Source: Escherichia phage vB_EcoM_50EP
DNA: 50,636 nt
Sequence record: OR472545.1
Direction: 5' to 3' (one strand)
Of this stretch, positions 25,416-44,545 are shown piece after piece (position 1 is the first letter of the stretch; each line of letters starts with the position of its first letter). A program made the position numbers and the translations under genes. The notes beneath the pieces were generated by a model that saw only the letters and a program-made list of their open reading frames with translations, searched no databases and was not told the DNA's origin.

Positions 25416-25442
25416 AGACGAATCGGCGGGGTGGTGTATTAT
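25400..25442 (+). promoter_or_regulatory. TAGCAC-box promoter cassette
   Basis: TAGCACGAATTGCTAAAG ... TATTAT ... CATCGAAACGAAGT; box overlaps upstream stop codon. Confidence 0.45.
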
Positions 25443-25481
25443 CACCTCATCGAAACGAAGTAACCAACCAAGGAAATCAAA

Positions 25482-25754
25482 ATGAAAAAGTCAATCATCG
25501 CTCTACTGGCAGTTGTGGCAATGGCAGGTTGTGCAGAAGATACCAAGTTTTACGATTGCGGTAAGGAATCATTCACAGTAACCAAGTCGCAGATTGTTTC
25601 AGACAAGGGCGTTGTTATTGAGCGTGAAGGCGATCACTATGAACTGCAAACTTTCTTGGGGAAGGCGGTTTACAACGTGACTGAAAGTCAGGTCAAAGTT
25701 AGCGTCGGCGGGTTCGTCGCTGTTAATAACTGCAAAGTTACCGAGGTTAAATAA
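25482..25754 (+). CDS. lipoprotein
   Basis: signal peptide + lipobox MAGC. Confidence 0.5.
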   Translation: MKKSIIALLAVVAMAGCAEDTKFYDCGKESFTVTKSQIVSDKGVVIEREGDHYELQTFLGKAVYNVTESQVKVSVGGFVAVNNCKVTEVK

Positions 25755-26701: not shown

Positions 26702-26744
26702 TAGCACGAATTGCTAAACATACCCGCCGCCGCGCGGGTATACT
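26702..26744 (+). promoter_or_regulatory. TAGCAC-box promoter cassette
   Basis: TAGCACGAATTGCTAAAC ... GGTATACTTCTTTCATACC hairpin. Confidence 0.45.
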
Positions 26745-26774
26745 TCTTTCATACCAACGAGACGAGGAATCACC

Positions 26775-27008
26775 ATGAAGAAGCAACCTTTTAGCACTTA
26801 CAACCAGCAGGCATACCGTAAAAATATTTTACTGCCGCACCTGCTTCGCATGGCTAATGAGTGCGCAAGTGAAGCGCTGTCGCTTGGTAAGGACGGCGGT
26901 CTTGACGAAGTGATTGCCGTTACTTATCTCAAGGGCGCTTATGGTCACTTGCCGATCGCAGACTATCAAGCTATGTCAGGGAGCTTTGACATTTATGGTA
27001 ACTGTTGA
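26775..27008 (+). CDS. hypothetical protein
   Basis: ORF with RBS GAGGAA. Confidence 0.35.
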   Translation: MKKQPFSTYNQQAYRKNILLPHLLRMANECASEALSLGKDGGLDEVIAVTYLKGAYGHLPIADYQAMSGSFDIYGNC

Positions 27009-28714: not shown

Positions 28715-28757
28715 TAGCACGAATTGCCTAACACCATAGCGCCGGAAGGCGCTATAT
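28715..28757 (+). promoter_or_regulatory. TAGCAC-box promoter cassette
   Basis: TAGCACGAATTGCCTAAC ... GCGCCGGAAGGCGC hairpin ... TATATT. Confidence 0.4.
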
Positions 28758-28785
28758 TCATATCTCACTCACATAGGATTCAATC

Positions 28786-28959
28786 ATGGTTAAATTATTT
28801 TGCGTTAAGAACACATCTAAAACTCTGCCTTTCACTGTTAACAATCCGTACAGCGCCGAGTACCAGGGCGACGGGAACTACAAGATTTACGGCGACGATA
28901 TGACGTGGATTTTTGCGCCGATTGATGGTGCTTTGGTGGAATTCATTATAGAAGACTAA
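28786..28959 (+). CDS. small hypothetical protein (57 aa, below track threshold)
   Basis: ATG after cassette; ORF read manually. Confidence 0.3.
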   Translation: MVKLFCVKNTSKTLPFTVNNPYSAEYQGDGNYKIYGDDMTWIFAPIDGALVEFIIED

Positions 28960-32265: not shown

Positions 32266-32297
32266 CTTATTCTCTCTCGTTGTTATCGATGGGTATA

Positions 32298-32341
32298 AAT
32301 ATACCCGCCGAAGCGGGTATTGTCATTAACAAAAAGTGCTA
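32298..32341 (-). promoter_or_regulatory. TAGCAC-box promoter cassette (minus)
   Basis: rc: TAGCACTTTTTGTTAATG ... CCCGCTTCGGCGGG hairpin ... TATATT. Confidence 0.4.
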
Positions 32342-32548: not shown

Positions 32549-32898
32549 TTGTAAGCCGCCTCAAACTTATACATCCCATAACCAACATCATATCCAACCT
32601 CATCATCACGAGTGAGTTGCCAGCCGTCGCCGTCATTGTCGTAGATGTAGCCGGCATTACGACCTAATCCAGCGTGCATGGAGATCTGATAGCGCTTTCC
32701 TTCAGTGAATGATTTCTTAAGTGGATTGCTGTGGTCAACTTTTGTACATAGCAGGGTTTTGGTCTTAATGTAGCGCCCCTTGACGTCCAGGTTAACCCAC
32801 TTGCCATCAACCTTGATTTGCTCTACCTCATCTTTCACGCGAGCTTTCAGCATGCGGTTATCTGATGTGACGAAGTTTTTGGTGATAGTGGTAGCCAT
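32545..32898 (-). CDS. hypothetical protein
   Basis: 117 aa, ATGA-coupled to downstream gene. Confidence 0.4.
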   Translation of the reverse strand: MATTITKNFVTSDNRMLKARVKDEVEQIKVDGKWVNLDVKGRYIKTKTLLCTKVDHSNPLKKSFTEGKRYQISMHAGLGRNAGYIYDNDGDGWQLTRDDEVGYDVGYGMYKFEAAYK

Positions 32899-32936
32899 GA
32901 TTATTTTCCTTTAGTGTGTTTCGTTTCGATGAGATG

Positions 32937-32979
32937 AATATACAGGAAAAGCCCCGAAGGGCTTTAGCAATTCGTGCTA
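32937..32979 (-). promoter_or_regulatory. TAGCAC-box promoter cassette (minus)
   Basis: rc: TAGCACGAATTGCTAAAG ... GCCCTTCGGGGC hairpin ... TATATT ... CATCGAAACGAAAC. Confidence 0.45.
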
Positions 32980-34762: not shown

Positions 34763-34987
34763 TTAGCTCCAGGAATTGATGTAAAGTGAGTTATCGTTTA
34801 ACAGGTTGACCATCTCAGCACGGGTAAGGCTACGGATGATTGATCCTGGATGAGTGCCAACAACGTAGCGGTCGAACTCACGGCGCGTAATGGTGATTTG
34901 GCTTACGCCTGCGGCGCGGTCCAGCTTGACGATTGCACGGCCTTTTGCTTCGATGTGTGCTACTACGTTCTGAGCTTTAACTGACAT
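34763..34987 (-). CDS. hypothetical protein
   Basis: 74-aa ORF after cassette. Confidence 0.4.
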   Translation of the reverse strand: MSVKAQNVVAHIEAKGRAIVKLDRAAGVSQITITRREFDRYVVGTHPGSIIRSLTRAEMVNLLNDNSLYINSWS

Positions 34988-35023
34988 TTTTACTTCCTCT
35001 TTGTGTACTTCGTTTCGATGAAA

Positions 35024-35068
35024 TGATTATGCCTCATTCCGTGAGGCTTCGTTTAGCAATTCGTGCTA
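35024..35068 (-). promoter_or_regulatory. TAGCAC-box promoter cassette (minus)
   Basis: rc: TAGCACGAATTGCTAAAC ... GCCTCACGGAATGAGGC hairpin ... CATCGAAACGAAGT. Confidence 0.45.
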
Positions 35069-35275: not shown

Positions 35276-35458
35276 TTACATGTGTTTCATGTAGAAAGCG
35301 ATTTCACGGATGTTGTCCTCTGGATGAGCCTTCACGACTACCGCGAACATCTTCTCAACCAGCGACTTGGTGCTCTCAGGGTTGTAACCTTCCTGGACCA
35401 GCATGGCGATAGTGTTTTCGATGGTAACTGGTGAGTTCTTGTTGATGCGCTTAGCCAT
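35276..35458 (-). CDS. hypothetical protein
   Basis: 60-aa ORF after cassette. Confidence 0.35.
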   Translation of the reverse strand: MAKRINKNSPVTIENTIAMLVQEGYNPESTKSLVEKMFAVVVKAHPEDNIREIAFYMKHM

Positions 35459-35494
35459 GATGATTTCCTTTAGTGCGTGCCGTTTCGATGAGGT

Positions 35495-35538
35495 AATAAT
35501 AGCTAATCACTCCTGATCGGTCATTAGCAAAAAGTGCT
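35495..35538 (-). promoter_or_regulatory. TAGCAC-box promoter cassette (minus)
   Basis: rc: TAGCACTTTTTGCTAATG ... TATTAT ... CATCGAAACGGCAC. Confidence 0.45.
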
Positions 35539-35552
35539 ATTCGTTCGATTTA

Positions 35553-35905: not shown

Positions 35906-36174
35906 ACGAGATATTGCGATAGTTTTCTATGATACATTCTGACACTTGTAAGAATGGGATGACATTGTAGGAATAAAAAGGCATATATGGGGCAATCCTC
36001 CGCGAAATTTGATGTACAAGCTGTACACAGTGGTTACATTGAGCTATATCTGGCCCGAGAGGTCGCAAAACGTAACTAAGTCGAACATTTGCATCAATAA
36101 CACTTGATAACATGTAACCACGCTGGTAATATTGCACCCATCTTAACGAAGACCACCAATCAGGAGTAACATCT

Positions 36175-36696
36175 ATGTCAAATCATAATCAACCCGTAAG
36201 CCTGGGCGATGTCGTCCGCTACATGGCGGAGCAGGCGCTCAAGTCCGAGAACCGCAGCTACCACGTTCCAATCCACCTGATAGCTCGCCAGATGTACGGC
36301 CTCACGGCTGATGATATGGGCAGAATCAATGCCGACGACCTTGAGGCTGGCGGTAAGTACAGCGTTGCAAAGCTGAAAGCCTCGTACGTCTCTAACACGG
36401 TTGCCAGGATGCCAGAGATTCAGGCGGCGAACGTTCGGGCCAAGCTGTCAATCAAGGATGGCGACTTCGGGGATGATGTAGATGTTCGATGTGCTTACAT
36501 CACCCTGGTTGATGGTGCGATCCAGACCGGAACACGACACAAGGGTGACGCGGAAAAGGAGGCGGTCATCGTTGAAAGGTTCAAGTCTCGGTTGCTCAAG
36601 ATCACACCGAACGTCATCGACCTGCAAGGTGAGCAGAAAGAAGGTGCGCTCATTGCCCTGGCTCGCTACCATGAAATGATCAAGGATACTAAATGA
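36175..36696 (+). CDS. hypothetical early protein
   Basis: 173-aa ORF, first gene after AT-rich region, RBS AGGAG. Confidence 0.45.
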   Translation: MSNHNQPVSLGDVVRYMAEQALKSENRSYHVPIHLIARQMYGLTADDMGRINADDLEAGGKYSVAKLKASYVSNTVARMPEIQAANVRAKLSIKDGDFGDDVDVRCAYITLVDGAIQTGTRHKGDAEKEAVIVERFKSRLLKITPNVIDLQGEQKEGALIALARYHEMIKDTK

Positions 36697-37262
36697 TGAG
36701 CATGTTTGATTTCAGTGAAGATAAACTAACAGATGAGCAGGTGATTGAAGTTGCCATGATTGATGGTCTACTTCCGCTGCGAGTTGCGATCAGTCATAAC
36801 GGATACCGACAGTCGTTCAAATACTGGTGCAGCGCGGAAGAGATGCTTCGTGTCAAGCTCGACAGAAAGCTCGCCGTCGTCACCCATAAGATACACGACC
36901 AGGCGAAAAGAGGTAAGGGAGTTGTAGGCATTCGATCAACATACGAGGCGATCAGGAAGTTGCATCCTTTCGTCGGGCGCAATGGTGTCATGAATGACCT
37001 GAATGATAACATTCTGCCAGCGCTCCAGGGCGCCGGAATAATTTGCGTTATTGGTGACAAGATATATGCTCACCCTGCATTGGTTGGTATGGATGGTCGC
37101 GACGTCTATAAGTGGTGCAACGCCTGGCGCGCTGTGGAGCGCCGCAAATCTCAGAGCAAATTGCAGTCCAGCTCAGATCTGATTCATGGCTATGATGCAG
37201 ATGAGGTCAGAAAGGCCATCCAGTTCTACCGGAAAGCGAAATCTCTCCTGAACGGTGAATAG
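36693..37262 (+). CDS. mini-paralog of the P-loop ATPase (N- and C-terminal segments only, ATPase core absent)
   Basis: MFDFSEDKLTDEQV...LPLRVAI..NGYRQS and KRGKGVVGIRSTYEA...GDKIYAHPALVG align to the ends of the 30682..32265 product. Confidence 0.45.
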   Translation: MMSMFDFSEDKLTDEQVIEVAMIDGLLPLRVAISHNGYRQSFKYWCSAEEMLRVKLDRKLAVVTHKIHDQAKRGKGVVGIRSTYEAIRKLHPFVGRNGVMNDLNDNILPALQGAGIICVIGDKIYAHPALVGMDGRDVYKWCNAWRAVERRKSQSKLQSSSDLIHGYDADEVRKAIQFYRKAKSLLNGE

Positions 37263-37302
37263 CACGAATTGCTAAACCAGTTCCGCAAGGACGCGGTATA
37301 TT
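37260..37302 (+). promoter_or_regulatory. TAGCAC-box promoter cassette
   Basis: TAGCACGAATTGCTAAAC ... CCGCAAGGACGCGG ... TATATT ... CATTGAAACGAAAT. Confidence 0.45.
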
Positions 37303-37333
37303 GAACTCATTGAAACGAAATAGGAACATCACC

Positions 37334-37564
37334 ATGAGCTACACGATCGCCACAATGCGCACATCCACCAGGGAGCAGCGAAAGAGCCGTAAGCAGGTTA
37401 TCACCAAGCGAATCGAACGTAATGCCATGAGATACATGACGGCTGAGCAGGCCGAGAGATTCATGCGCGCCATCAAGTCCGACCTTGTGGAATTGATGGA
37501 TATTGGAAGCGCCGCCGGATACCAGTCAGGCCGTAACGATGAGCGCAATAGCACGAATTGCTAA
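37334..37564 (+). CDS. hypothetical basic protein
   Basis: ATG 37334 with RBS AGGAAC; track N-terminal extension rejected. Confidence 0.35.
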   Translation: MSYTIATMRTSTREQRKSRKQVITKRIERNAMRYMTAEQAERFMRAIKSDLVELMDIGSAAGYQSGRNDERNSTNC

Positions 37565-37591
37565 ACAATAAATCGGGTAGTCAGCTATGAT
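37549..37591 (+). promoter_or_regulatory. TAGCAC-box promoter cassette
   Basis: TAGCACGAATTGCTAAAC ... TATGAT; box overlaps upstream stop. Confidence 0.4.
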
Positions 37592-37621
37592 TGCCCTATC
37601 AACAACGAAGAGGAAATGATT

Positions 37622-37828
37622 ATGGAAACTGTACGTATTGACGACGTTCACTTTGACCAAGCAGAGGTCAGCGTCACGATGGGAACCGCTCGTGGGCATG
37701 TTGTTAGCCTAGACTTTAATCCTGACGGCTACGCAGACTGTCAAACACTGATGCAATACTCACCTGATGCGGCCCGCAAATTAGCGGCGGCACTAATCCT
37801 GGCAGCAGAAGAGGCAGAAAATCAATGA
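37622..37828 (+). CDS. small protein, paralog family member A
   Basis: shares DFNPD...Y.P..AR.LAAAL..AAEE pattern with 37825 and 38603 ORFs. Confidence 0.4.
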   Translation: METVRIDDVHFDQAEVSVTMGTARGHVVSLDFNPDGYADCQTLMQYSPDAARKLAAALILAAEEAENQ

Positions 37829-38043
37829 GAGACATTCGAGTTAACTCATCATGGAATCAGGAAACGGAAATCTCAGTAATCAAGGTTCCGTTCGGAAAGA
37901 TGCGTAAGCGCGTGCACCTGGACCTTTCGCCGGATTCGCAAGTGGATGGCGCTGGCATGACATACACCGCAGAGCAGGCGCGCGAACTTGCTGCGGCACT
38001 CATCAAAGCGGCTGAGGAAGTGGAGGCGGAAGTCGATGAGTAA
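37825..38043 (+). CDS. small protein, paralog family member B
   Basis: LDLSPD...YTAEQARELAAALIKAAEE; ATGA-coupled to A. Confidence 0.4.
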   Translation: MRDIRVNSSWNQETEISVIKVPFGKMRKRVHLDLSPDSQVDGAGMTYTAEQARELAAALIKAAEEVEAEVDE

Positions 38044-38236
38044 ATTCAGGATCGCATTGATTGACACAACAACCGCCTTCGGTCATCCGGTCAAGTGGTA
38101 TGCCGTCCAAAAACGGGTGGCTTTGTTCTGGTGGGTTACGGTTGGGCACACCAGCCAGTTATCCCAGGCTCGCTACTGGCTGCATAAGTCCGGCGCACCG
38201 CATCGCAAAGAGAAAGTAGTGAGGATTATCGAATGA
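38036..38236 (+). CDS. hypothetical protein
   Basis: ATG 38036 overlapping upstream stop. Confidence 0.3.
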   Translation: MSKFRIALIDTTTAFGHPVKWYAVQKRVALFWWVTVGHTSQLSQARYWLHKSGAPHRKEKVVRIIE

Positions 38237-38523
38237 AGAAACTAATTTTATTAGCAGCACTGGCTCTGGCTGGATGTGATTTCGGAAGCACCCGCGTAGA
38301 TTCAGAGGCTCGGCAGAAGATGCCAGTGAATGTCAACGATCGCGTCCAGGTTGTGAAGATTCAGGAGTTCAGGGATGAACTGGCATATGAGAACGTCAGA
38401 GCGATATACGTCATCACCGATAAGGACACTGGTCAGGAATACATCGGCTTAAGCGGTGTCGGGATCGTGGAAGTTGGTCGCCATGGTTGCGGCAAGGGAT
38501 GCTCCAGAGAAGATGAGCGATAG
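38233..38523 (+). CDS. lipoprotein
   Basis: signal peptide with lipobox LAGC. Confidence 0.5.
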   Translation: MKKLILLAALALAGCDFGSTRVDSEARQKMPVNVNDRVQVVKIQEFRDELAYENVRAIYVITDKDTGQEYIGLSGVGIVEVGRHGCGKGCSREDER

Positions 38524-38563
38524 CACTTTTTGTTAAAAATGCCGTGAGTGCATTTGCTATAGT
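38521..38563 (+). promoter_or_regulatory. TAGCAC-box promoter cassette
   Basis: TAGCACTTTTTGTTAAAA, 8-bp stem TGAGTGCA/TGCACTCA with TTTGCTATAG loop, CATTGAAGTGAAAC. Confidence 0.5.
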
Positions 38564-38602
38564 GCACTCATTGAAGTGAAACAATCAACTAAGGGGTAAT
38601 TT

Positions 38603-38833
38603 ATGAGCACGACCGCCGTACGCATCGCTGACGACTCAGGCGAACAGGCCGAGGTAATGGTAAAGAAACTGCATAGCAGCGCCCATGGCTTCGCATTCAA
38701 GGTGTGCGTTGACTTCAATCCTGAAGAGTATGTTGACGCATCAAGTTACATGGCGTACACGCCAGACCAGGCGCGCCAGTTAGCGGCGTATCTGATGGAA
38801 GCTGCCAACCGCGCTGATAAGGGGGTTTTATGA
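38603..38833 (+). CDS. small protein, paralog family member C
   Basis: VDFNPEEY...YTPDQARQLAAYLMEAA. Confidence 0.4.
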   Translation: MSTTAVRIADDSGEQAEVMVKKLHSSAHGFAFKVCVDFNPEEYVDASSYMAYTPDQARQLAAYLMEAANRADKGVL

Positions 38834-39054
38834 TTAACGATTATGAAATTAAGAAAGAAAGCAAGATATTTAACGATTCAGATGGTGATTCTTGCTGCAT
38901 TTACACGAGAACTACGCTGGGAGTTGTAACCGTCGAGATGGTGATTGAACACGAATCAGGAGCGTTCCCCATGAGGGAGTCGACAACAGTCCGAGCAATG
39001 GGCGAGCACCTTATCAAAATGGCTGACTACATGGAGCGCCACAATGAACAATGA
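38830..39054 (+). CDS. hypothetical acidic protein
   Basis: 74-aa ORF, ATGA-coupled. Confidence 0.35.
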   Translation: MINDYEIKKESKIFNDSDGDSCCIYTRTTLGVVTVEMVIEHESGAFPMRESTTVRAMGEHLIKMADYMERHNEQ

Positions 39055-39259
39055 AGAAATGATTAAGATCCGCATTATCAAGTCACCTTACCACTGCGTT
39101 GACAAAAGCAAACTGCCAGTTGTGGCTATGGCCTTGCGATACGATGAGGGTGGAGAGGTTTTTTATAATGTTGACGCCGACTTCCTTCCTGCTATTGACA
39201 AGAAAGGAATTTCCCCTGGGTGCTGGCCTTTCAGAGAGGAAGAGGTTGAAGTGCTATGA
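39044..39259 (+). CDS. hypothetical protein
   Basis: 71-aa ORF overlapping neighbour. Confidence 0.35.
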   Translation: MNNEEMIKIRIIKSPYHCVDKSKLPVVAMALRYDEGGEVFYNVDADFLPAIDKKGISPGCWPFREEEVEVL

Positions 39260-39354
39260 AGTTCAAATTAGTTGACGTGCTGCAATTGCTGTGTGTTGGG
39301 TTATCCTGGGTGCTGTTGTTCCTGGTGATAATCCTCCTGGTTACTATCAAATAA
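39256..39354 (+). CDS. possible 32-aa hydrophobic membrane peptide (below track threshold)
   Basis: manually read ORF MKFKLVDVLQLLCVGLSWVLLFLVIILLVTIK; ATGA-coupled. Confidence 0.2.
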   Translation: MKFKLVDVLQLLCVGLSWVLLFLVIILLVTIK

Positions 39355-39360
39355 AGGTGA

Positions 39361-39609
39361 ATGAAAATGGTTTTCAATAAACAGACAATCTTTGATTTTA
39401 TGGACGACGTGAACAAGGCTATTCAGGAGTTTGCTGTTGCAATGGAAGCGGTAATCATTAGCTACTCAGTCGAATACGGAAGGATTGAGGTCCGGTACTA
39501 CCCTGCTAACGCCATAGCAGATGTGCATCCAGTGATGAGCATCTTGGTCGGTGATGCAAGTGAGCTTCGACGGATTACGTCTGGTGTGAGAAAGAGCACG
39601 AATTGCTAA
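39361..39609 (+). CDS. hypothetical protein
   Basis: 82-aa ORF. Confidence 0.35.
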   Translation: MKMVFNKQTIFDFMDDVNKAIQEFAVAMEAVIISYSVEYGRIEVRYYPANAIADVHPVMSILVGDASELRRITSGVRKSTNC

Positions 39610-39636
39610 AACGATATTCTCCCTGACTGGTATACT
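39594..39636 (+). promoter_or_regulatory. TAGCAC-box promoter cassette (GAGCAC variant)
   Basis: GAGCACGAATTGCTAAAA ... CTGACTGGTATACTTCTTTCATACC. Confidence 0.4.
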
Positions 39637-39664
39637 TCTTTCATACCAACAAGGGAGATACGAA

Positions 39665-39853
39665 ATGACTAACTACACCACGATTTACACTCACTGCGGC
39701 AAAGCGTTCACGGCACTGGCTGAGGATATTGAGTATCTGCCCTGGCACCAGGTATGGAAGATGCACAAGATTACTTCCACTGGAACGCAGGAGTGGTTCT
39801 TGAGAAAGATTTACGTGGCTGAGGTCATTCACCACAACGAAAAATTCGAATAG
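39665..39853 (+). CDS. hypothetical protein
   Basis: 62-aa ORF after cassette. Confidence 0.35.
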   Translation: MTNYTTIYTHCGKAFTALAEDIEYLPWHQVWKMHKITSTGTQEWFLRKIYVAEVIHHNEKFE

Positions 39854-39893
39854 CACTTTTTGTTAAACCTTCCGCAAGGCCATTTGATATAGT
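39851..39893 (+). promoter_or_regulatory. TAGCAC-box promoter cassette
   Basis: TAGCACTTTTTGTTAAAC, stem AAGGCCA/TGGCCTT with TTTGATATAG loop. Confidence 0.5.
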
Positions 39894-39933
39894 GGCCTTA
39901 TTGAAGCAAAGCAACCAATCAGAGGATTTGCAG

Positions 39934-40137
39934 ATGTTTACTGAAAAAGAGTTTGAGCAGTTTTTCCGCCTGGTCAATATGTCAGGCAGCGCGGACCAGA
40001 TGGATCGCATAAACAGCCGTCTTGAGATGCCAAAGTTCATCGAAGCGGTAGGCCGCAAGACGTGCGATAAGATGTGGCACTTAATTGAGCATTGCGGCGT
40101 AACACCAGCAACACTTAAATCGGAGCATATGAAATGA
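39934..40137 (+). CDS. hypothetical protein
   Basis: ATG 39934 with RBS AGAGGA. Confidence 0.35.
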   Translation: MFTEKEFEQFFRLVNMSGSADQMDRINSRLEMPKFIEAVGRKTCDKMWHLIEHCGVTPATLKSEHMK

Positions 40138-40523
40138 AAGTACGTTTACTTAACCCTAGCATCTATGCAGATCCTGAATACTTCAAGCTGCATCCGAAAG
40201 AGACTAGCCCTCGCGATCCTGGCTCTTACCCGATCGTTGTGGAAGGGTTTATTGTTGAGCCGATGGAGTTCGAGAAGAAATATGGAATTGAGTCTCCAAA
40301 TAACTCAATCAAGGTTGGCGGCGATGAACTGGATCGCGTATTCAAAAGCTATTTCAGTGACGGACGCCCGATGAACTCAATCTACGGTAGTGCTGCGGTT
40401 CTCGGTTGGTGGAATCATGAAGGCGAGCCGAAATCATGGGAGCCAGTAGGGCCGTTCGACTTCTGGAACAAATTAAAGGCATCACGCGAAATTGGTGAAA
40501 CAGTAGGGAAGGGTTACTTATGA
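40134..40523 (+). CDS. hypothetical protein
   Basis: 129-aa ORF. Confidence 0.4.
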   Translation: MKVRLLNPSIYADPEYFKLHPKETSPRDPGSYPIVVEGFIVEPMEFEKKYGIESPNNSIKVGGDELDRVFKSYFSDGRPMNSIYGSAAVLGWWNHEGEPKSWEPVGPFDFWNKLKASREIGETVGKGYL

Positions 40524-40708
40524 TTATTTATGATTATTTATGCATCGTGCTTTACATCCTTGGCGCACTTCCGGTTTACGCAATTGCAAAAGACGTTAGC
40601 AATAGTGATAACAAGTGGTACGACATGGTGATCGTTGCTGCTATCTGGCCCATTGCCATTGCGTTCGGAGCAATCAAAGGCATCTACCAAAAGTTGAAGG
40701 AGCAATAA
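40520..40708 (+). CDS. small membrane protein (2 predicted TMDs)
   Basis: two hydrophobic stretches; 5' end contains a 10-bp tandem duplication. Confidence 0.4.
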   Translation: MIIYDYLCIVLYILGALPVYAIAKDVSNSDNKWYDMVIVAAIWPIAIAFGAIKGIYQKLKEQ

Positions 40709-40710
40709 TC

Positions 40711-40929
40711 ATGCAAGTCTACACTAACAGTAAAGGCGTCGAATTTTGTGCAATCGGTGATGTGGTTCTGCGTACTGGCGGCGGATACGGGGTTATTAAC
40801 ATCTCAGGCATCACGCAGGATCAGTTGGTAAAGGGCATCCAGGCTGGCATCTTTACCTATCACTCATCACTGACGGCTAAGCAGTACGTCACACTTGAAA
40901 CTGCAATTCGCGCCGGATTCATCGAATAG
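40711..40929 (+). CDS. hypothetical protein
   Basis: ATG 40711 with RBS GAAGGAG. Confidence 0.35.
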   Translation: MQVYTNSKGVEFCAIGDVVLRTGGGYGVINISGITQDQLVKGIQAGIFTYHSSLTAKQYVTLETAIRAGFIE

Positions 40930-40969
40930 CACTTTTTGTTAAAACTTGCTCGGAGACATTAGCTATAGT
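40927..40969 (+). promoter_or_regulatory. TAGCAC-box promoter cassette
   Basis: TAGCACTTTTTGTTAAAA, stem GGAGACA/TGTCTCC with TTAGCTATAG loop. Confidence 0.5.
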
Positions 40970-41010
40970 GTCTCCTGTCAAGTGAACGCAAACCAACTGA
41001 GGAATCACAT

Positions 41011-41814
41011 ATGAACAGCATCAACCGTTATATCCCTGTGTCAGTGCCAACCAGCGTCAACATTCACGGCGTCGGAATGCAAGCCTGCGACGATGGAGCA
41101 TGGGTATCCTACGCAATGCATAAAAAAGAAATCGAGTCCTTACAGGCACGCTTAAAGGCCTTAGAATCGACTCAAAAACATCAAATTTCTGCACCGTCGA
41201 TTATCGCTGACCATGTTGAGCAGGCAATCAAAGAAGCTGTAGGTAAGCTGGTGCACGAAGCATGTGAGCAATTGCTCAAGGATTTGCCTAAGTACAATGG
41301 CGATCCGTGTCACAGCACTGTCGATGCATTCGTGAATGAGCTTGCGGCTGGCTCAGGGAAAACCGTCGTAGATGATGGCGTAAAGTTTGATTACCTGACG
41401 AAAGATGCCAAGTTCACTTTCGGTAGCAATTTCGGTGAAGGCAAGGCGCTTACCATGTCAACCGCGAAAATGGAGCCACGCAGCGGCGGTTACGATTATG
41501 GAAATCGTCACGTATGGGCGGTAGGTGAATGCGAATCTGCACGCGATCGCAAGGTGGCAGTTTGCTATTACGTTGGCGGGAATGGATTCGTAAATGGTGG
41601 AGAATATGAGTATGAAGAAGGAGAGTGCGAAACAGGTTCCAAACCGCGCGTTATTCACATCACGCAAGACGATTTCGTATCTGGATTAAAAGGTGACTAC
41701 CGCTGGAGAGCTATGAAGGTTGGTAATGTGATAAATGCTAATGGTGAGCTAGTTGACGCATACGCAACACTAAATATTAATGGCGGAGTAGTGGCTCAGT
41801 TCTATATCAAATAG
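41011..41814 (+). CDS. hypothetical protein with C-terminal Cys/Gly-rich region
   Basis: 267-aa ORF. Confidence 0.4.
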   Translation: MNSINRYIPVSVPTSVNIHGVGMQACDDGAWVSYAMHKKEIESLQARLKALESTQKHQISAPSIIADHVEQAIKEAVGKLVHEACEQLLKDLPKYNGDPCHSTVDAFVNELAAGSGKTVVDDGVKFDYLTKDAKFTFGSNFGEGKALTMSTAKMEPRSGGYDYGNRHVWAVGECESARDRKVAVCYYVGGNGFVNGGEYEYEEGECETGSKPRVIHITQDDFVSGLKGDYRWRAMKVGNVINANGELVDAYATLNINGGVVAQFYIK

Positions 41815-41854
41815 CACTTTTTGTTAAAAGGGGATTCATCCTGACTGGTATAAT
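41812..41854 (+). promoter_or_regulatory. TAGCAC-box promoter cassette
   Basis: TAGCACTTTTTGTTAAAA, stem GGGGATT/AATCCCC, CTGACTGGTATAAT. Confidence 0.5.
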
Positions 41855-41887
41855 CCCCACATCAACCACACGAAAGGAAGTTAACCA

Positions 41888-42340
41888 ATGAAAAGGATTG
41901 ATGAACTTGTAATTATTACATCATTAGAGACTGATGATTGCATAGATTGGACTTACGCAAAAACAAGAGATGGATACGGCCAGGTTAGATATCGTGGGGC
42001 AACCAGAAGGGCGCACAAGGTATCATACTGCATGTCAAATGGAATTGACTATGAGGATGTAAAAGGTGTTGTAATGCACTCATGCGATAATCCTTGTTGT
42101 GTAAACCCAAGACACCTAACAGTTGGCACTCAGCATGAAAATATTATTGATTGCGTCTCAAAGGGTAGATTTAGAAGTGTGGAGGGCATTAAGAATCCAA
42201 GGTCGATAGTGTCAAACTCTGACGCAGAGAAAATGCGCTCAATGAGGGAGATTGGAATGACTTATGGTGATATAGCGAAAAGCATGGGCGTTGGAAAATC
42301 AACGGCGTATAGAGTAATAACAACTGGATACTTATCATGA
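41888..42340 (+). mobile_element. HNH homing endonuclease with C-terminal HTH-like segment
   Basis: DGYGQV...HK..Y......V.HSCDNPCCVNPRHL..GT..EN pattern; markedly AT-rich relative to flanks. Confidence 0.55.
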
Positions 42341-42876
42341 ATCAGCTTTACACAATGATTAAACACCATATAGAAACATCATACAATAACAAGCCTGTTT
42401 ACTGTTTTGACTACGACGGCACGCTGTCGGACGGATCGCATCGCTTGCACAGGTTGCCGACAAAGGATTTGCACCTTACCGAGTCATGGTCTGAGTTCAA
42501 TAGATTGTCAATACATGATGAACCTATCGAATCAACCATTCAGGTGATGAATAGCCTGTTTGACTCAGGCGCGTTCATCATCATTCTAACAGGGCGTTCA
42601 GATGAGGTATGTGAGATTTCAACTCAATGGCTTCATGATGCTGGCGCAAAATATAACGTCATGGTAATGCGGCAGGCGAGAGACAATCGCAAAGACACTC
42701 TCATCAAAGAGGAGTTCTTGCGTTACATTGGCTTGCACCGCATCACCGCAGCGTGGGATGATAGCCCTAATGTTATCGCGCACTTCCGAAGCCTGCGAAT
42801 CACCACCTATCAAGTGTGTGACTATGGCGATAAGCTCCATGCCGGAGTAGGATCACACGGCGTGCATAATAAGTGA
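42337..42876 (+). CDS. HAD-superfamily phosphatase
   Basis: DxDGT motif (FDYDGTL) near N-terminus, ILTGRS motif II-like. Confidence 0.5.
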   Translation: MNQLYTMIKHHIETSYNNKPVYCFDYDGTLSDGSHRLHRLPTKDLHLTESWSEFNRLSIHDEPIESTIQVMNSLFDSGAFIIILTGRSDEVCEISTQWLHDAGAKYNVMVMRQARDNRKDTLIKEEFLRYIGLHRITAAWDDSPNVIAHFRSLRITTYQVCDYGDKLHAGVGSHGVHNK

Positions 42877-42996
42877 CGATATACGAACATATATTCAGCA
42901 GCAGGGGTATTGATATGCTCCTGCATTATGTAGACAAAAAATACGCAAACCTCATGCTTAAGACGCATGGTGGAAAAATAAAGAGGATTAAAGTAA

Positions 42997-43629
42997 ATGG
43001 CTAAAATTATCATTCTCAACGGTCCAGCTTCGGTTGGTAAAGACACGATCGGCAACGCGCTCGCAGCGGATTACAACTGCATCCCTACCAGCTTCAAGCG
43101 TCCGATGTTTGAGATTGCAGCATCAATCCTTGGTGCCAGGGCTTTCTCAAAGTTCATCACCGCATACGACGACCGCGATCAGAAAGAGCAGCCTCAGAGC
43201 TTTCTCGGTGGCAAGACCTGCCGTGAGTTCATGATCTGGATTAGCGAAACAGTGGTCAAGCCGCTTTTTGGCAATCAGCAGTTCGGCAAATTGATGAGCG
43301 AGCATATCCAACTGTGTGATCAAGGTTTCTGTTTTGTGTGTACTGATGGCGGCTTCCCTGATGAAGTGATCCAACTCCTTGAAGATGGTCACGATGTCAC
43401 CCTGGTTCGCCTGTTCATGGATGGCAAGACTTTCGATGGCGATAGCCGTGATTACATTCGTCTTAAGGAATTGTACTACCCTTATTACAAGAAATATAGC
43501 GAGCATGATGTGCATCTGGTGAATGGTGATATTTATGGCGGCGTCCTGGCGGTTGCTGAGGCTTGCGGTATTAGCTCACAAGTTCCAGAGGTTGATGTTT
43601 ACGAGTGGGAAGATGGATTACCATGGTAA
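42997..43629 (+). CDS. P-loop kinase (nucleotide or polynucleotide kinase-like)
   Basis: Walker A GPASVGKDT at residues 9-17; about 210 aa; adjacent to HAD phosphatase. Confidence 0.45.
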   Translation: MAKIIILNGPASVGKDTIGNALAADYNCIPTSFKRPMFEIAASILGARAFSKFITAYDDRDQKEQPQSFLGGKTCREFMIWISETVVKPLFGNQQFGKLMSEHIQLCDQGFCFVCTDGGFPDEVIQLLEDGHDVTLVRLFMDGKTFDGDSRDYIRLKELYYPYYKKYSEHDVHLVNGDIYGGVLAVAEACGISSQVPEVDVYEWEDGLPW

Positions 43630-43630
43630 A

Positions 43631-43673
43631 TAGCACGAATTGCTAAACCAGCTCCGGCGGGTTTTGTTATAGT
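43631..43673 (+). promoter_or_regulatory. TAGCAC-box promoter cassette
   Basis: TAGCACGAATTGCTAAAC ... TTGTTATAGT. Confidence 0.4.
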
Positions 43674-43702
43674 TAGCTCACACCAAACGAGAGGAAGGCA
43701 AG

Positions 43703-43861
43703 ATGATTACTATCAACCTGTCAGATAAGCAAGCCGCCACACTGAAACAGTTACTGGCCAGTCAGACTATGCAGTGCTCAGCCGATGAGTTCTCTGAGAT
43801 GGTCAAAGAGGTTCGCACTCAGATCAACAATCAGCAATTCGACGAAAACGAAGGGGAATAA
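43703..43861 (+). CDS. small hypothetical protein (52 aa, below track threshold)
   Basis: manually read ORF with RBS GAGGAAGG. Confidence 0.3.
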   Translation: MITINLSDKQAATLKQLLASQTMQCSADEFSEMVKEVRTQINNQQFDENEGE

Positions 43862-43863
43862 CC

Positions 43864-44262
43864 ATGAAATTACGTTGCGTTAAAATACATCCAGGGTTAG
43901 CGCCGCTGCTCGAAGATCACTTTCAGGTTGGTCATGTGTACGAAGCTAAACGCAGGCCAAACCGCCACCTCAACGTGGCTGATGTTATTGATGTGGATAA
44001 CGGCCTTACTTGGTACGCCATCCAGAAAGGCAGTAAGTTTAACCTGAATCTCGCAAGCGGCAAAGCAGTCACTTTCGCGGTAGTAAAAGGTCCGCGCCGC
44101 TTAGTAGTGACGGAAAAACGTGTAACTGGCGTCCTTAATGATAAGCGTAAGTTCCGCCGTATGTGTCGCCAGTATGGAAAGCTGCGATTCACCGAGCCTG
44201 GGATGTTCTGCTTCATCGCCTTTGCGGCAATGAAAAAGAATGCACGTAATCACCAGCGATAG
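43864..44262 (+). CDS. hypothetical basic protein
   Basis: 132-aa ORF. Confidence 0.4.
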   Translation: MKLRCVKIHPGLAPLLEDHFQVGHVYEAKRRPNRHLNVADVIDVDNGLTWYAIQKGSKFNLNLASGKAVTFAVVKGPRRLVVTEKRVTGVLNDKRKFRRMCRQYGKLRFTEPGMFCFIAFAAMKKNARNHQR

Positions 44263-44302
44263 CACTTTTTGTTAAAACTCAGAATCGGGGTGGCTGTATA
44301 GT
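44260..44302 (+). promoter_or_regulatory. TAGCAC-box promoter cassette
   Basis: TAGCACTTTTTGTTAAAA ... GGGGT...TGTATAGTTACCCC ... CATCGAAACGAACG. Confidence 0.5.
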
Positions 44303-44332
44303 TACCCCATCGAAACGAACGAGGAAGCAGAA

Positions 44333-44545
44333 ATGAAAATTGAAATTATCGACGTAGATTACCAGGTAGATACGGAAGTTCTCACACTGCGTGACTGTGG
44401 TTTCCAGGTTGGAGATGTAGTCGAGGTCTCTGGTTATTACCTTGATGGAGACCTTTCAATTCAGGCAATCCGTGAGACTGAGTTAGTGAATGTCGGCAAT
44501 GAAATCAGTATTAGCGAGCATGAATATAAGGTGATCGAAGAATGA
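44333..44545 (+). CDS. small acidic protein
   Basis: 70 aa, about 27% Asp+Glu. Confidence 0.35.
   Translation: MKIEIIDVDYQVDTEVLTLRDCGFQVGDVVEVSGYYLDGDLSIQAIRETELVNVGNEISISEHEYKVIEE

What the first reader, a model, noticed from the sequence alone, without database searches (positions are those of the whole stretch)
37260..44345. Promoter cassettes with fixed 22-bp phasing, -10 hexamer inside a hairpin loop, and conserved CATCGAAACGAA leader
In nearly every copy a TATA(A/G/C)T hexamer lies 21-23 bp after TTG(C/T)TA, too far for a canonical sigma70 -35/-10 pair (17 bp). The hexamer sits in the loop or 3' arm of a copy-specific inverted repeat (e.g. TGAGTGCA..TGCACTCA at 38543, AAGGCCA..TGGCCTT at 39872, GGAGACA..TGTCTCC at 40950, GGGGATT..AATCCCC at 41832), often with a TGn extended -10. 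About 6 bp later comes CATCGAAACGAA, then RBS and ATG. The stem sequences differ while the structure is kept, which implies selection for the hairpin. This resembles the promoter-early-stem-loop modules reported in some T4-like phages, but in a T1-like backbone and with a different box.
Basis: partly seen in the sequence, partly recalled or inferred. Interest (0 to 1): 0.8.

Follow-up and report, generated by a model that had tools for sequence, protein, structure and literature searches.

The report
Phage promoter cassettes built on marboxes
The repeated intergenic cassettes of this T1-like coliphage are real promoter-plus-hairpin modules, and their puzzling upstream box is a perfect copy of the E. 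coli MarA/SoxS/Rob binding site placed exactly as in host promoters that need those stress activators, which gives a testable function to a phage repeat unexplained since 2004.

Summary
The cassettes are real. The window is a Nouzillyvirus-like member of the Drexlerviridae. It carries 19 co-oriented copies, nine in the given range: upstream stop codon, TAGCACnnnTTGyTAAA box, 20 nt, a -10 hexamer (G at -14), A(+1), a CA-rich leader, SD, ATG.

The box is already published as an unexplained 21-nt repeat of TLS, T1 and Rtp. My reading is that TTG(C/T)TA is not a misplaced -35. The box matches the published marbox (GCAnnWWnTGnnAAA) perfectly: 18 hits against 0.96 expected. It lies forward, centred near -40, with the same 20-nt gap to the -10 as E. 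coli micF, the model class II promoter. There is no -35. At the capsid and tail-fibre promoters the box sits backward inside the core promoter, a repressing position.

Hairpins are strongly enriched but not universal, and they fall into two preferred registers. One is terminator-like and lies upstream of the -10.

Homology with relatives breaks inside the boxes, the PeSL-like pattern of module gain and loss.

Binding by host MarA/SoxS/Rob is inferred, not shown. A phage Cro-like protein is the main rival reader of the box.

The parts
37260..37336 (+). Cassette 1. Box 37260-37276 (marbox 37262-37276); its TAG is the stop codon of ORF 36693-37262. -10 TATATT 37297-37302. Predicted +1 at A37309. 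Leader CATTGAAACGAA 37308-37319. ATG 37334. Weak hairpin.
   Evidence: z -1.6
37549..37618 (+). Cassette 2. Box 37549-37565; the upstream ORF stops at the TAA inside the box (37562-37564). Hairpin 37575-37583 / 37588-37596. -10 TATGAT 37586-37591 in the loop and 3' arm. ATG 37616.
   Evidence: -13.6 kcal/mol, z -4.45
38521..38605 (+). Cassette 3. Box 38521-38537 (TAG is the upstream stop). Class B hairpin 38545-38554 / 38561-38570. TGcTATAGT with the hexamer at 38558-38563. Predicted +1 at A38570. ATG 38603.
   Evidence: z -3.82
39594..39667 (+). Cassette 4. Box 39594-39610 (GAGCAC variant; upstream stop is TAA 39607-39609). TGgTATACT with the hexamer at 39631-39636. Nested structure: CUCCCU 39619-39624 pairs with SD AGGGAG 39652-39657, and GGUAU 39629-39633 pairs with AUACC 39643-39647. 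ATG 39665.
   Evidence: -17.4 kcal/mol, z -4.79
39851..39937 (+). Cassette 5. Box 39851-39867 (TAG stop). Class B hairpin AAGGCCA 39876-39882 / TGGCCTT 39893-39899. TGaTATAGT with the hexamer at 39888-39893. ATG 39935.
   Evidence: z -3.42. T1 3536 has the same hairpin behind the other box subtype.
40927..41013 (+). Cassette 6. Box 40927-40943 (TAG stop). Class B hairpin GGAGACA 40952-40958 / TGTCTCC 40969-40975. TATAGT 40964-40969. ATG 41011.
   Evidence: z -4.26
41812..41890 (+). Cassette 7. Box 41812-41828 (TAG stop). Hairpin GGGGATT 41830-41836 / AATCCCC 41852-41858. TGgTATAAT with the hexamer at 41849-41854. ATG 41888 of an inserted HNH endonuclease gene.
   Evidence: z -2.63
43631..43705 (+). 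Cassette 8. Box 43631-43647. Decayed terminator-like stem CCAGC..GCGGG 43648-43661 followed by TTTTGT; it is intact as CCCGC/GCGGG in relatives and ACCGC/GCGGT in Rtp. TGtTATAGT with the hexamer at 43668-43673. ATG 43703.
   Evidence: z 0.0
44260..44335 (+). Cassette 9. Box 44260-44276 (TAG stop). Class B hairpin GGGGTG 44287-44292 / TACCCC 44303-44308. TATAGT 44297-44302. Exact leader CATCGAAACGAA 44308-44319. ATG 44333.
   Evidence: z -3.02
16085..16171 (-). Cassette outside the range: box 16155-16171, exact leader 16111-16122, ATG of ORF 15857-16087.
17643..17724 (+). Cassette outside the range, upstream of the Erf-like gene 17722-18378. Class B hairpin, TGcTATAAT.
22809..22890 (+). Cassette upstream of helicase 22888-24990, divergent from the Cro-like HTH gene.
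25400..25484 (+). Cassette with a class B hairpin (GAGGTG/CACCTC family) and exact leader 25448-25459.
26702..26777 (+). Cassette with a class A, terminator-like hairpin ATACCCGC..GCGGGTAT 26720-26741 abutting the -10 TATACT.
   Evidence: passes the terminator scan; only the loop varies among orthologues
28715..28788 (+). Cassette with a class A hairpin TAGCGCC-GGAA-GGCGCTA abutting the -10 TATATT.
32263..32341 (-). Cassette (box 32325-32341) with a class A hairpin, upstream of helicase-like ORF 30682-32265.
32896..32979 (-). Cassette (box 32963-32979) with GCCC-TTCG-GGGC followed by TTTT directly after the box (canonical terminator form); exact leader 32920-32931.
34985..35068 (-). Cassette (box 35052-35068) with a class A hairpin; -10 CATAAT; exact leader 35009-35020.
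35456..35539 (-). Cassette (box 35523-35539), the first leftward promoter next to the AT-rich non-coding region.
1517..1544 (+). Major-capsid promoter TTGACC-16 nt-TATTAT. Its spacer is the box in backward orientation (1524-1538). ATG 1592.
   Evidence: conserved in CJ19, TH27, TH30, T1
21256..21274 (-). Palindromic box TTTAGCA-N5-TGCTAAA just downstream of TGaTACAAT on the minus strand, in an operator-like position at about +1 of the tail-fibre gene 18905-21241.
   Evidence: conserved in CJ19, TH27, TH30, TH21, Rtp, P817, T1
36104..36177 (+). Canonical sigma70 promoter without a box: TTGATA-17-TAATAT with TG, followed by the cassette-type leader CATCTTAACGAA (36139-36150). Drives ORFs 36175-37262.
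22321..22803 (-). Cro-like single-HTH protein (T1 gp23 / Rtp52 homologue), the rival candidate for reading the box.

Best explanation
Each cassette is a compact intergenic module that does three jobs.

(1) It is a sigma70 promoter of the class II activator type. It has a good -10, often with G-14 or TGn, and no -35. A consensus marbox, the binding site of the monomeric AraC-family activators MarA, SoxS and Rob (RamA in Klebsiella and Salmonella), lies in forward orientation centred at about -40, overlapping the position where a -35 would be. The 'TTG(C/T)TA 22 bp upstream' is the TGYYAA part of that marbox. The fixed phasing is the class II marbox-to-(-10) distance. The activator would recruit RNA polymerase through sigma region 4 and alpha-CTD, as at micF. 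The same box placed backward inside the core of the capsid and tail-fibre promoters would repress them. One factor would therefore switch early/middle genes on and two late promoters off.

(2) The otherwise free 32 bp between box and start site usually encode a copy-specific hairpin. It is not contained in the cassette's own transcript; it is transcribed only by read-through from upstream. In one register it looks like an intrinsic terminator whose U-tract is the -10 and discriminator. In the other register (-10 in the loop or 3' arm) it most likely attenuates read-through or protects the 3' end of the upstream mRNA.

(3) The conserved box supplies stop codons in two frames, and the box and leader supply homology patches at which gene modules are gained and lost by recombination.

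Shown: the sequence match, orientation, spacing, absence of a -35, hairpin enrichment and recombination junctions. Inferred: the transcription start site, binding and activation by host MarA/SoxS/Rob, and what the hairpins do.
For: Marbox identity.
- The published patterns are gcannwwntgnnaaa (PMC12052159) and GCAHWWWWTGYYAAA (PMC6900184). The phage box GCAC(TTT/GAA)TTG(T/C)TAAA matches 15/15 of the first, and 15/15 or 14/15 of the second.
- Searching the window with the literature pattern gives 18 perfect hits against 0.96 expected. All 18 are the phage box.
- In 127 non-redundant cassettes the box varies only at -43, -42 (A/T only), -41 (A/T only) and -37 (C/T only). These are the degenerate N/W/W/Y positions of the consensus.
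- The phage box is 15/19 identical to the E. coli mar promoter marbox.

Geometry.
- Class II marboxes lie forward, overlap the -35 and cluster near -41/-41.5. Class II promoters lack a -35 (PMC10268841, PMC9638938, PMC8811837).
- In E. coli micF the marbox ends 20 nt before the -10. That is the phage modal gap.
- Every box with a -10 is co-oriented with its gene.
- The best match to TTGACA at 16-18 bp averages 2.7 of 6. A sigma70 scan finds no excess of canonical promoters (31 against 30.2).

Trans-factor site.
- The box lies backward in the spacer of the capsid promoter and at about +1 of the tail-fibre promoter, conserved from T1 to Rtp to Nouzillyvirus.
- No MarA homologue is encoded by six relatives (best phmmer E 1.1).

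Hairpins.
- 96 of 127 cassettes have at least 6 consecutive pairs, against 50 (maximum 59) in shuffles. MFE is -7.2 against -3.55 kcal/mol. 36 % reach -9 kcal/mol or lower, against 2.8 % of shuffles.
- Chimeras and random genomic 32-mers give -4.2 and -4.0 kcal/mol.
- Two registers are preferred.
- Compensatory G:C to A:T changes occur in orthologues.
- The T1 RefSeq record annotates three in-cassette hairpins as rho-independent terminators.

Recombination. Box-to-box junctions lie at 37277|37547 and 40944|41806.
Against: - No binding or transcription data exist. The start site is predicted only.
- MarA and SoxS are scarce in unstressed cells. From memory, Rob is abundant but largely inactive, yet T1-like phages grow well on laboratory strains.
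- A Keio screen with the T1-like phage LL5 does not mention rob, marA or soxS (PMC7229145). No single one of them is therefore essential, though redundancy and the extended -10 could hide an effect.
- The box has a 5-bp dyad (TAGCA-N5-TGCTA), and the phage encodes a conserved Cro-like HTH protein that could read it.
- A-48 and T-40 are conserved more strongly than the marbox consensus requires. The TAG stop codon explains part of this.
- Only micF could be aligned unambiguously as a reference class II promoter; sodA, fumC and nfo were ambiguous without start-site data.
- Class B hairpins have no U tract. In unselected sets, position-fixed covariation is modest (0.45 against 0.405; 17 of 1000 permutations).
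Confidence: 0.6

Rival explanations
1. The box is the operator of a phage-encoded regulator, the conserved Cro-like HTH protein (window ORF 22321-22803, T1 gp23, Rtp52). The protein binds as a dimer to TAGCA-N5-TGCTA. It activates from about -42, as lambda cI does at PRM, and represses where the box overlaps a core promoter. The match to the marbox is coincidental.
For: - The box has a 5-bp inverted repeat with half-sites one helical turn apart. It is a perfect 7-bp palindrome at 21256-21274.
- The protein is conserved in all relatives examined and annotated as a transcriptional regulator in T1 and Rtp.
- Its AF2 model (pLDDT 86) matches Xfaso 1 Cro and N15 Cro over the HTH domain (TM about 0.7 on the target).
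- Its own gene has a backward box between the intergenic -10-like sequence and its RBS (my reading), which fits autoregulation.
- The first rightward promoter, 36104-36132, is box-less and canonical. Some genes can therefore be expressed without any box factor.
Against: - Conservation is asymmetric. The flanks are AA-TAGCA on the left but TGCTA-AAA on the right. C-44 and T-40 are not complementary. A third of the boxes have T at -37, which breaks the dyad.
- The box is strictly oriented relative to the -10, as expected for an asymmetric reader.
- The predicted recognition helix varies among homologues (for example TRQAVEEW, SNSLLTTW, SRGVVVEW) while the box is invariant. This is weak evidence, because the boxes of those contigs were not checked.
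- A coincidental 15/15 match to the marbox, including the W, W and Y positions and the micF spacing, is improbable.
- A phage-made repressor of the capsid and tail-fibre genes makes awkward timing.
Confidence: 0.2
2. First reader's model. TTG(C/T)TA is a sigma70 -35 hexamer held at a non-canonical 22-bp distance. The copy-specific hairpin or cruciform around the -10 is part of the initiation mechanism, for example presenting the -10 or shortening the spacer under supercoiling.
For: - The phasing is fixed at 22 +/- 1 bp.
- Hairpins with the -10 in the loop or 3' arm are a preferred register: 16 of 127 cassettes against 2.6 expected.
- Stems differ between copies.
Against: - Conservation extends 11 bp upstream of TTG (aATAGCAC) and 3 bp downstream (AAA). 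That is far more than a -35.
- The hairpin is weak or absent in roughly a quarter to half of the cassettes. It occupies at least three registers, including ones wholly upstream of the -10.
- Extruding a class B cruciform would remove the -10 from the duplex. Extruding a class A cruciform would shorten the spacer to about 10 bp or less. Neither gives a usable -35/-10 geometry (my reasoning).
- The same box occurs backward inside canonical promoters.
Confidence: 0.05
3. The box is read by RNA polymerase itself (an UP-element-like or extended upstream contact), or it is a 'stoperator' or enhancer site for an unknown factor, as suggested in the TLS paper. The hairpins are ordinary terminators that happen to sit next to promoters.
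For: - The TLS authors proposed stoperator, enhancer or UP-element roles (PMC11447400).
- The ends of the box are A-rich.
- The extended -10 could give activator-independent activity.
- T1 annotators called some of the hairpins terminators.
Against: - The G+C core GCAC..TG is invariant and unlike UP elements.
- The box also lies backward in promoter spacers and at a start site, which points to a trans-acting protein rather than an RNA polymerase contact.
- Stoperators act within transcribed regions in either position. Here 19 of about 22 boxes sit at one fixed distance upstream of a -10.
Confidence: 0.12

Closest known systems
Class II MarA/SoxS/Rob (RamA) promoters of Enterobacteriaceae, e.g. 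E. coli micF
   Same: - A consensus marbox (A site GCAC, B site YAAA) lies on the coding strand and overlaps the -35 position, centred near -41.
- There is no -35 hexamer but a good -10.
- The gap between marbox and -10 is the same 20 nt as in micF.
   Different: - There are about 19 near-perfect copies in a 50-kb virulent phage. Host marboxes are degenerate and scattered.
- Each copy is fused to an upstream stop codon, a hairpin and a conserved leader.
- Binding and activation are untested here.
PeSLs (promoter-early stem-loops) of T4-like myoviruses (Arbiol et al. 2010, PMC2839356; Comeau et al. 2014, PMC4122927)
   Same: [quoted passage not shown]
- A promoter is combined with a stem-loop placed between the upstream element and the -10, or overlapping the -10.
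- Stem sequences vary.
- Cassettes flank small ORFs of unknown function.
- Cassettes serve as recombination points for gain and loss of modules.
   Different: - PeSL promoters are canonical -35/N17/-10. Here there is no -35 and an activator site stands in its place.
- The phage family is different (Drexlerviridae siphoviruses).
- These cassettes add a conserved leader.
- Terminator activity is untested here.
The 21-nt direct repeat aaATAGCACnnnTTGnTAAAA of phages TLS, T1, Rtp and Rogue1 (PMC11447400)
   Same: It is the same element. It points in the direction of transcription, lies about 76 nt upstream of start codons, and has A, T and G subtypes in its central triplet. In the window the box-to-ATG distance is 72-84 nt.
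   Different: The paper leaves the function open (stoperator, enhancer or UP element). As far as I could read, it does not report the phased -10, the hairpins, the leader, the backward copies in late promoters or the marbox match.
Marbox-mediated repression (pbpG; from memory also rob, purA, hdeA)
   Same: The marbox lies within the core promoter. At pbpG it overlaps the spacer, and MarA, SoxS and Rob repress the promoter. The phage capsid promoter has the box as its spacer, and the tail-fibre promoter has it at about +1.
   Different: The phage cases are late-gene promoters. Repression there is only predicted.

Membership tests
Class II MarA/SoxS/Rob-dependent promoter | Sequence matches the marbox consensus (gcannwwntgnnaaa / GCAHWWWWTGYYAAA; A site GCAC, B site YAAA) | tested here: met
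   15/15, and 15/15 or 14/15. There are 18 perfect hits against 0.96 expected. Variation is confined to the degenerate positions.
Class II MarA/SoxS/Rob-dependent promoter | Forward orientation (consensus on the coding strand) | tested here: met
   All 19 cassettes read GCAC..AAA on the strand of the downstream gene, as micF does.
Class II MarA/SoxS/Rob-dependent promoter | Site overlaps the -35 position, centred about -41 from the start site | tested here: met
   The gap to the -10 is 20 nt (19-21), identical to micF. The centre is at about -40 if +1 is the conserved A 7 nt after the hexamer. The start site is predicted, not mapped.
Class II MarA/SoxS/Rob-dependent promoter | No recognisable -35 hexamer; canonical -10 | tested here: met
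   The best TTGACA match at 16-18 bp averages 2.7 of 6. T-12, A-11 and T-7 are near-invariant in the 54-cassette set, where they were not imposed (94, 100 and 100 %); the set was selected on TAnnnT, so its 100 % values are by construction. G-14 is 74-76 %.
Class II MarA/SoxS/Rob-dependent promoter | Bound and activated by MarA, SoxS or Rob | not testable with these tools
   Needs EMSA or footprinting, in vitro transcription and reporter assays in marA soxS rob mutants.
PeSL (T4-type promoter-early stem-loop cassette) | [quoted passage not shown] | tested here: met
   The stop codon lies inside the box in 8 of 9 in-range copies (TAG in 6, TAA in 2) and 1 nt upstream in the ninth.
PeSL (T4-type promoter-early stem-loop cassette) | Strong sigma70 promoter with -35 / N17 / -10 | tested here: not met
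   There is no -35 at 16-18 bp. The conserved element lies 22 bp upstream.
PeSL (T4-type promoter-early stem-loop cassette) | Stem-loop between the upstream element and the -10, or overlapping the -10 | tested here: met
   Two preferred registers; 96 of 127 cassettes against 50 in shuffles.
PeSL (T4-type promoter-early stem-loop cassette) | Stem-loop terminates or attenuates upstream transcription | not testable with these tools
   Class A stems are GC-rich and followed by a U-rich stretch, and T1 annotators called them terminators. Class B stems lack a U tract.
PeSL (T4-type promoter-early stem-loop cassette) | Cassettes are crossover points for indels between close relatives | tested here: met
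   Junctions fall inside the box at 37277|37547 (against TH27, TH30, CJ19, P817) and at 40944|41806 (against TH21). Several other breaks fall at cassette edges.
Drexlerviridae 21-nt direct repeat (TLS 'DR') | aaATAGCACnnnTTGnTAAAA, co-oriented with transcription, about 76 nt upstream of start codons | tested here: met
   It is also present in many 41-52 kb IMG/VR contigs.
Sigma54 promoter (TGGCAC-N5-TTGCW) | GG and GC elements exactly 12 bp apart, with the start site about 12 bp downstream | tested here: not met
   TAGCAC-N3-TTGC is 2 bp too short, has AG instead of GG, and is followed by a phased -10.
Intrinsic (rho-independent) terminator | GC-rich stem-loop immediately followed by a U tract | tested here: inconclusive
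Met by copies such as 32979, 26702 and relatives of 43631. Only 26720-26741 passes the simple scan.

The most novel reading that the evidence does not exclude
T1-like phages wire their whole early and middle transcription programme into the host mar/sox/rob stress regulon. Pre-existing host activators (Rob, or MarA/SoxS/RamA in stressed cells) switch on about 19 phage promoters and hold the capsid and tail-fibre promoters off. The early-to-late switch then happens passively. The activator is titrated by thousands of replicated marboxes, or decays after host shut-off; from memory, MarA and SoxS are short-lived. Infection would therefore be tuned by bile salts, antibiotics or oxidative stress. 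The phage DNA would also act as a sponge for the regulators that control efflux (AcrAB-TolC) and porins, and TolC is a receptor for some of these phages.
Probability: 0.25. Interest if true: 0.85.

Novelty: new variant of a known kind. Interest (0 to 1): 0.65.

Why it matters
The repeat has been known in T1-like phages since the T1 genome paper. A 2024 re-annotation of TLS still lists it as unexplained, and these phages appear to have almost no recognisable sigma70 promoters.

Reading the repeat as a class II marbox gives a concrete mechanism that can be tested with reagents that already exist: purified MarA, SoxS and Rob, triple mutants and chemical inducers.

If the reading holds, it would be a case of a virulent phage family that relies on host stress activators for its promoters. 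It could link phage success to antibiotic, bile or oxidative stress, and it suggests a timer for late genes based on titration or decay of the activator.

Whichever protein binds the box, the cassettes extend the PeSL idea of a portable stop codon, promoter, hairpin and RBS beyond T4-like phages. They also explain much of the mosaicism in the early region. Practically, they offer compact, possibly inducible, insulated promoter parts, and a better rule for annotating promoters in Drexlerviridae, which are common phage-therapy candidates.

Tried and rejected
- Sigma54 look-alike (TGGCAC-N5-TTGCW). Rejected: the spacing is 2 bp short and a phased -10 follows.
- T4 MotA box, lambda CII (TTGC-N6-TTGC), IHF, Fis and LacI-family half-sites, compared from memory. 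None fits in register or position.
- Cruciform shortening of the spacer. The geometry does not work for either hairpin class.
- Phage-encoded MarA/AraC homologue. phmmer --max with E. coli MarA against six-frame ORFs of six genomes found nothing (best E 1.1). Pfam on ten early ORFs found no DNA-binding domain.
- Rfam. No family matches in the window.
- Simple sigma70 and terminator scans. No excess over shuffles.
- Other E. coli class II promoters as references for spacing (sodA, fumC, nfo). Ambiguous without start-site data, so not used.
- Position-fixed covariation on unselected cassettes. The signal is only modest, so the case for the hairpin rests on per-cassette folding statistics, register enrichment and a few orthologous compensatory changes.
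- Literature searches for transcription start-site mapping in T1-like phages, and for any link between the marbox and phages. Nothing relevant in the held library. The T1 genome paper (PMID 14972552) is not held.
- The search for 'ATAGCAC' was uninformative.

Full report
WHAT THE WINDOW IS. The region 37260-44345 matches Drexlerviridae coliphages. The closest are TH27, TH30, TH21, CJ19 and P817 (genus Nouzillyvirus), at 83-90 % identity in several pieces. Rtp, T1-group and Klebsiella phages match more distantly.

OBSERVATION. The nine copies in the range share this layout: aa-TAGCAC-nnn-TTG(C/T)TAAA, 20 nt, TAnnnT, 5-6 nt, C-A, an A/C-rich leader, SD, ATG.
- The hexamer starts exactly 22 bp after TTG(C/T)TA in all nine.
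- The box pattern occurs 23 times in the window against 0.73 expected.
- There are 19 full cassettes, always co-oriented with the gene downstream. They lie on both strands between 16 and 45 kb.
- In eight genomes, 138 of 174 boxes have TAnnnT 19-21 nt after TAAA, 102 of them at 20. In 128 sources that include IMG/VR contigs of 41-52 kb, the counts are 433, 64 and 66 at 20, 19 and 21 nt.
- TGn precedes the hexamer in 5 of 9 in-range copies. G-14 is present in about 75 % family-wide.
- The leader CATCGAAACGAA is exact in five window cassettes but in only one inside the range, with a second at one mismatch. Family-wide it is a consensus: C-1 65-68 %, A+1 80-89 %, GAAAC, AA.

THE BOX IS ALREADY PUBLISHED, BUT UNEXPLAINED. 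A 2024 re-annotation of phage TLS reports a 21-nt direct repeat aaATAGCACnnnTTGnTAAAA at 21 sites. [quoted passage not shown] The paper says the repeat is also present in T1, Rtp and Rogue1. It reports only three sigma70-like promoters in the genome and offers stoperators, enhancer sites or UP elements as possibilities (PMC11447400). I found the same cassettes in T1 and Rtp.

WHAT THE BOX IS. The 22-bp puzzle is resolved once the whole box is compared with the binding site of the monomeric AraC-family activators MarA, SoxS and Rob.
- Published marbox definitions are 5'-gcannwwntgnnaaa-3' (PMC12052159) and 5'-GCAHWWWWTGYYAAA-3' (PMC6900184), with an A site GCAC and a B site CAAA (PMC9638938).
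- The phage box reads GCAC(TTT/GAA)TTG(T/C)TAAA. That is 15/15 against the first pattern, and 15/15 (TTT type) or 14/15 (GAA type) against the second.
- A search of the window with the literature pattern alone returns 18 perfect hits against 0.96 expected. Every hit is the phage box.
- In 127 non-redundant cassettes the box varies only at -43, -42, -41 and -37. At -42 and -41 it alternates between A and T only, and at -37 between C and T only. These are the N, W, W and Y positions of the consensus.
- The box is 15/19 identical to the marbox of the E. coli mar promoter, which I located in MG1655.

Geometry fits as well.
- Class II marboxes lie in forward orientation, overlap the -35 and cluster near -41/-41.5. 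Class II promoters lack a recognisable -35 (PMC10268841, PMC8811837, PMC9638938).
- In E. coli micF, the class II promoter used for the cryo-EM structures, GCACTGAATGTCAAA ends 20 nt before the -10 TAGAAT. That is the phage modal gap.
- The phage cassettes have no -35: the best match at 16-18 bp averages 2.7 of 6. A canonical sigma70 scan shows no excess over shuffles.
- TTG(C/T)TA is therefore the TGYYAA part of a marbox, not a -35.

THE BOX ALSO SITS INSIDE LATE PROMOTERS, BACKWARD. Two further box positions are conserved from T1 to Rtp to Nouzillyvirus.
- Upstream of the major capsid gene there is a near-consensus promoter, TTGACC-16 nt-TATTAT (1517-1544). Its spacer is the reverse-complement box.
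- Upstream of the tail-fibre gene, an extended -10 (TGnTAYAAT) is followed after 4 nt by the reverse box, at about +1 to +17.
- This dual use indicates that the box is the site of a trans-acting protein, not a polymerase contact. It suggests that a single factor turns early/middle promoters on and two late promoters off.

WHO BINDS IT. No MarA homologue is encoded: phmmer --max against all six-frame ORFs of six genomes gives a best E of 1.1. Ten early ORFs show no DNA-binding domain in Pfam.

The phage does encode a conserved Cro-like protein (ORF 22321-22803; T1 gp23, Rtp52). Its Pfam hits to Cro and YdaS are weak. Its AF2 model has pLDDT 86, and its best PDB matches are Xfaso 1 Cro and N15 Cro. 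The box contains a 5-bp dyad, TAGCA-N5-TGCTA, so this protein is a serious rival reader.

Three points count against it. Box conservation is asymmetric: AA on the left flank against AAA on the right, C-44 and T-40 are not complementary, and T at -37 in a third of copies breaks the dyad. The box is strictly oriented relative to the -10. The predicted recognition helix varies among homologues.

I therefore favour the host activators at about 0.6, against about 0.2 for the Cro-like protein. This is inference. A Keio screen with a T1-like phage does not mention rob, marA or soxS, so none of them is individually essential.

THE HAIRPINS. Hairpins in the 32 nt between box and start site are strongly enriched.
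- In 127 non-redundant cassettes, 96 have at least 6 consecutive pairs, against a mean of 50 (maximum 59) in shuffles that keep the -10 in place. Mean MFE is -7.2 against -3.55 kcal/mol. 36 % reach -9 kcal/mol or lower, against 2.8 % of shuffles.
- Chimeras built from the halves of different cassettes, and random genomic 32-mers, give -4.2 and -4.0 kcal/mol.
- Seven of the nine in-range copies have z between -2.6 and -4.8.

The hairpin is not universal and has no single position. Two registers are preferred.
- Class A pairs about -30..-23 with -16..-9. It has a GC-rich stem, usually a tetraloop, and its 3' arm ends in the first bases of the -10. A U-rich stretch follows. This is the form of an intrinsic terminator, and the T1 RefSeq record annotates three of these as rho-independent terminators.
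- A variant lies directly after the box and is followed by TTTT (32979; relatives of 43631).
- Class B pairs -24..-16 with -9..-1 and has TGnTAT in the loop. It has no U tract.

In every class both arms lie upstream of the predicted start. The hairpin therefore exists only in RNA read through from upstream.

Orthologues show two clean compensatory changes: GAGGTG/CACCTC to GAAGTG/CACTTC in TH27, and CCCGC/GCGGG to ACCGC/GCGGT in Rtp. They also show several wobble-preserving changes and variation confined to the loop. In unselected sets, position-fixed covariation is only modest.

The best-supported role is PeSL-like: termination or attenuation of upstream transcription for class A, and possibly 3'-end protection for class B. 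The role of class B remains open.

In cassette 39594, the sequence CUCCCU upstream of the start pairs with the SD (z -4.8). This would mask translation only on read-through RNA.

RECOMBINATION. Homology with relatives breaks at the cassettes.
- The module 37278-37546 (one gene plus one cassette) is absent from TH27, TH30, CJ19 and P817, and the junction lies inside the box.
- The module 40945-41805 is absent from TH21 in the same way.
- Other breaks fall at box starts or at the ATG. An HNH endonuclease gene is inserted exactly at the ATG behind cassette 41812.
- T1 carries the hairpin of window cassette 39851 behind the other box subtype.
- The box supplies the upstream gene's stop codon in 8 of 9 in-range copies, TAG or TAA, in two frames.

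This is the modular shuffling described for PeSLs (PMC2839356, PMC4122927).

COMPARISON AND NOVELTY. The cassettes work like PeSLs but fail one defining feature, a -35/N17/-10 promoter. By sequence and geometry they meet every testable criterion of class II marbox promoters. The criterion that cannot be tested here is binding and activation. The repeat itself is known. In the held library I found no paper that links it to the marbox. I rate it a new variant of known kinds.

The most novel reading not excluded by the evidence is a host-factor timer: an early-to-late switch driven by titration or decay of MarA, SoxS or Rob, which would couple infection to host stress.

Noticed in passing
window 1517-1544 (+), ATG 1592: The major-capsid promoter TTGACC-16-TATTAT uses the reverse-complement box as its spacer. 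The arrangement is conserved in CJ19, TH27, TH30 and T1. It predicts repression by whatever binds the box.
   Followed up: partly
window 21256-21274; minus-strand TGaTACAAT at about 21279-21287: A perfectly palindromic box (TTTAGCA-CTAAT-TGCTAAA) lies at about +1 of the tail-fibre gene promoter. The position is conserved in T1, Rtp and Nouzillyvirus relatives, and a bidirectional terminator lies just upstream (21301-21325).
   Followed up: partly
window 35540-36170: A non-coding, AT-rich region of about 630 bp lies between the divergent early gene blocks. It has many TTGCAAT/ATTGCA repeats (35556-35650) and a (TAT)n/(TA)n run (35858-35885). It may be an origin of replication or a regulatory hub.
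   Followed up: no
window 36104-36177: The first rightward promoter is a canonical TTGATA-17-TGgTAATAT without a box, yet it carries the cassette-type leader CATCTTAACGAA. It drives a DUF7174 protein (36175-36696) and an unknown 189-aa protein. These are candidate immediate-early genes.
   Followed up: partly
window 41888-42340: An HNH homing-endonuclease gene is inserted exactly between cassette 41812 (at its ATG) and the polynucleotide kinase gene. It is absent at this site from all seven relatives compared.
   Followed up: partly
window 39619-39657: In cassette 39594, an anti-SD sequence CUCCCU upstream of the predicted start pairs with the SD AGGGAG (-17.4 kcal/mol, z -4.8). Only read-through transcripts would have the ribosome site masked. 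The sequence is identical in TH27, TH30, TH21 and P817.
   Followed up: partly
window 22321-22803 (-): A conserved Cro-like single-HTH protein (T1 gp23 / Rtp52) has about 35 N-terminal basic, low-confidence residues and a C-terminal extension. Its gene is divergent from the helicase cassette, and a backward box lies in its own leader.
   Followed up: partly
window 42877-42996: This intergenic region before the 210-aa kinase-like gene has no box. It contains a hairpin (GCAGG..CCTGC, about 42901-42926), unlike the neighbouring intergenic regions.
   Followed up: no
window 40511-40545: A short tandem duplication, TTATGATTATT x2, lies at the junction of ORFs 40134-40523 and 40520-40708 and creates alternative ATG starts.
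   Followed up: no
L039 (IMGVR_UViG_2595698971_000001, 176 kb contig): There is a single box plus -10 match in a 176-kb viral contig, outside the 41-52 kb size class of all other hits. It may be a chance match or a transferred cassette.
   Followed up: no
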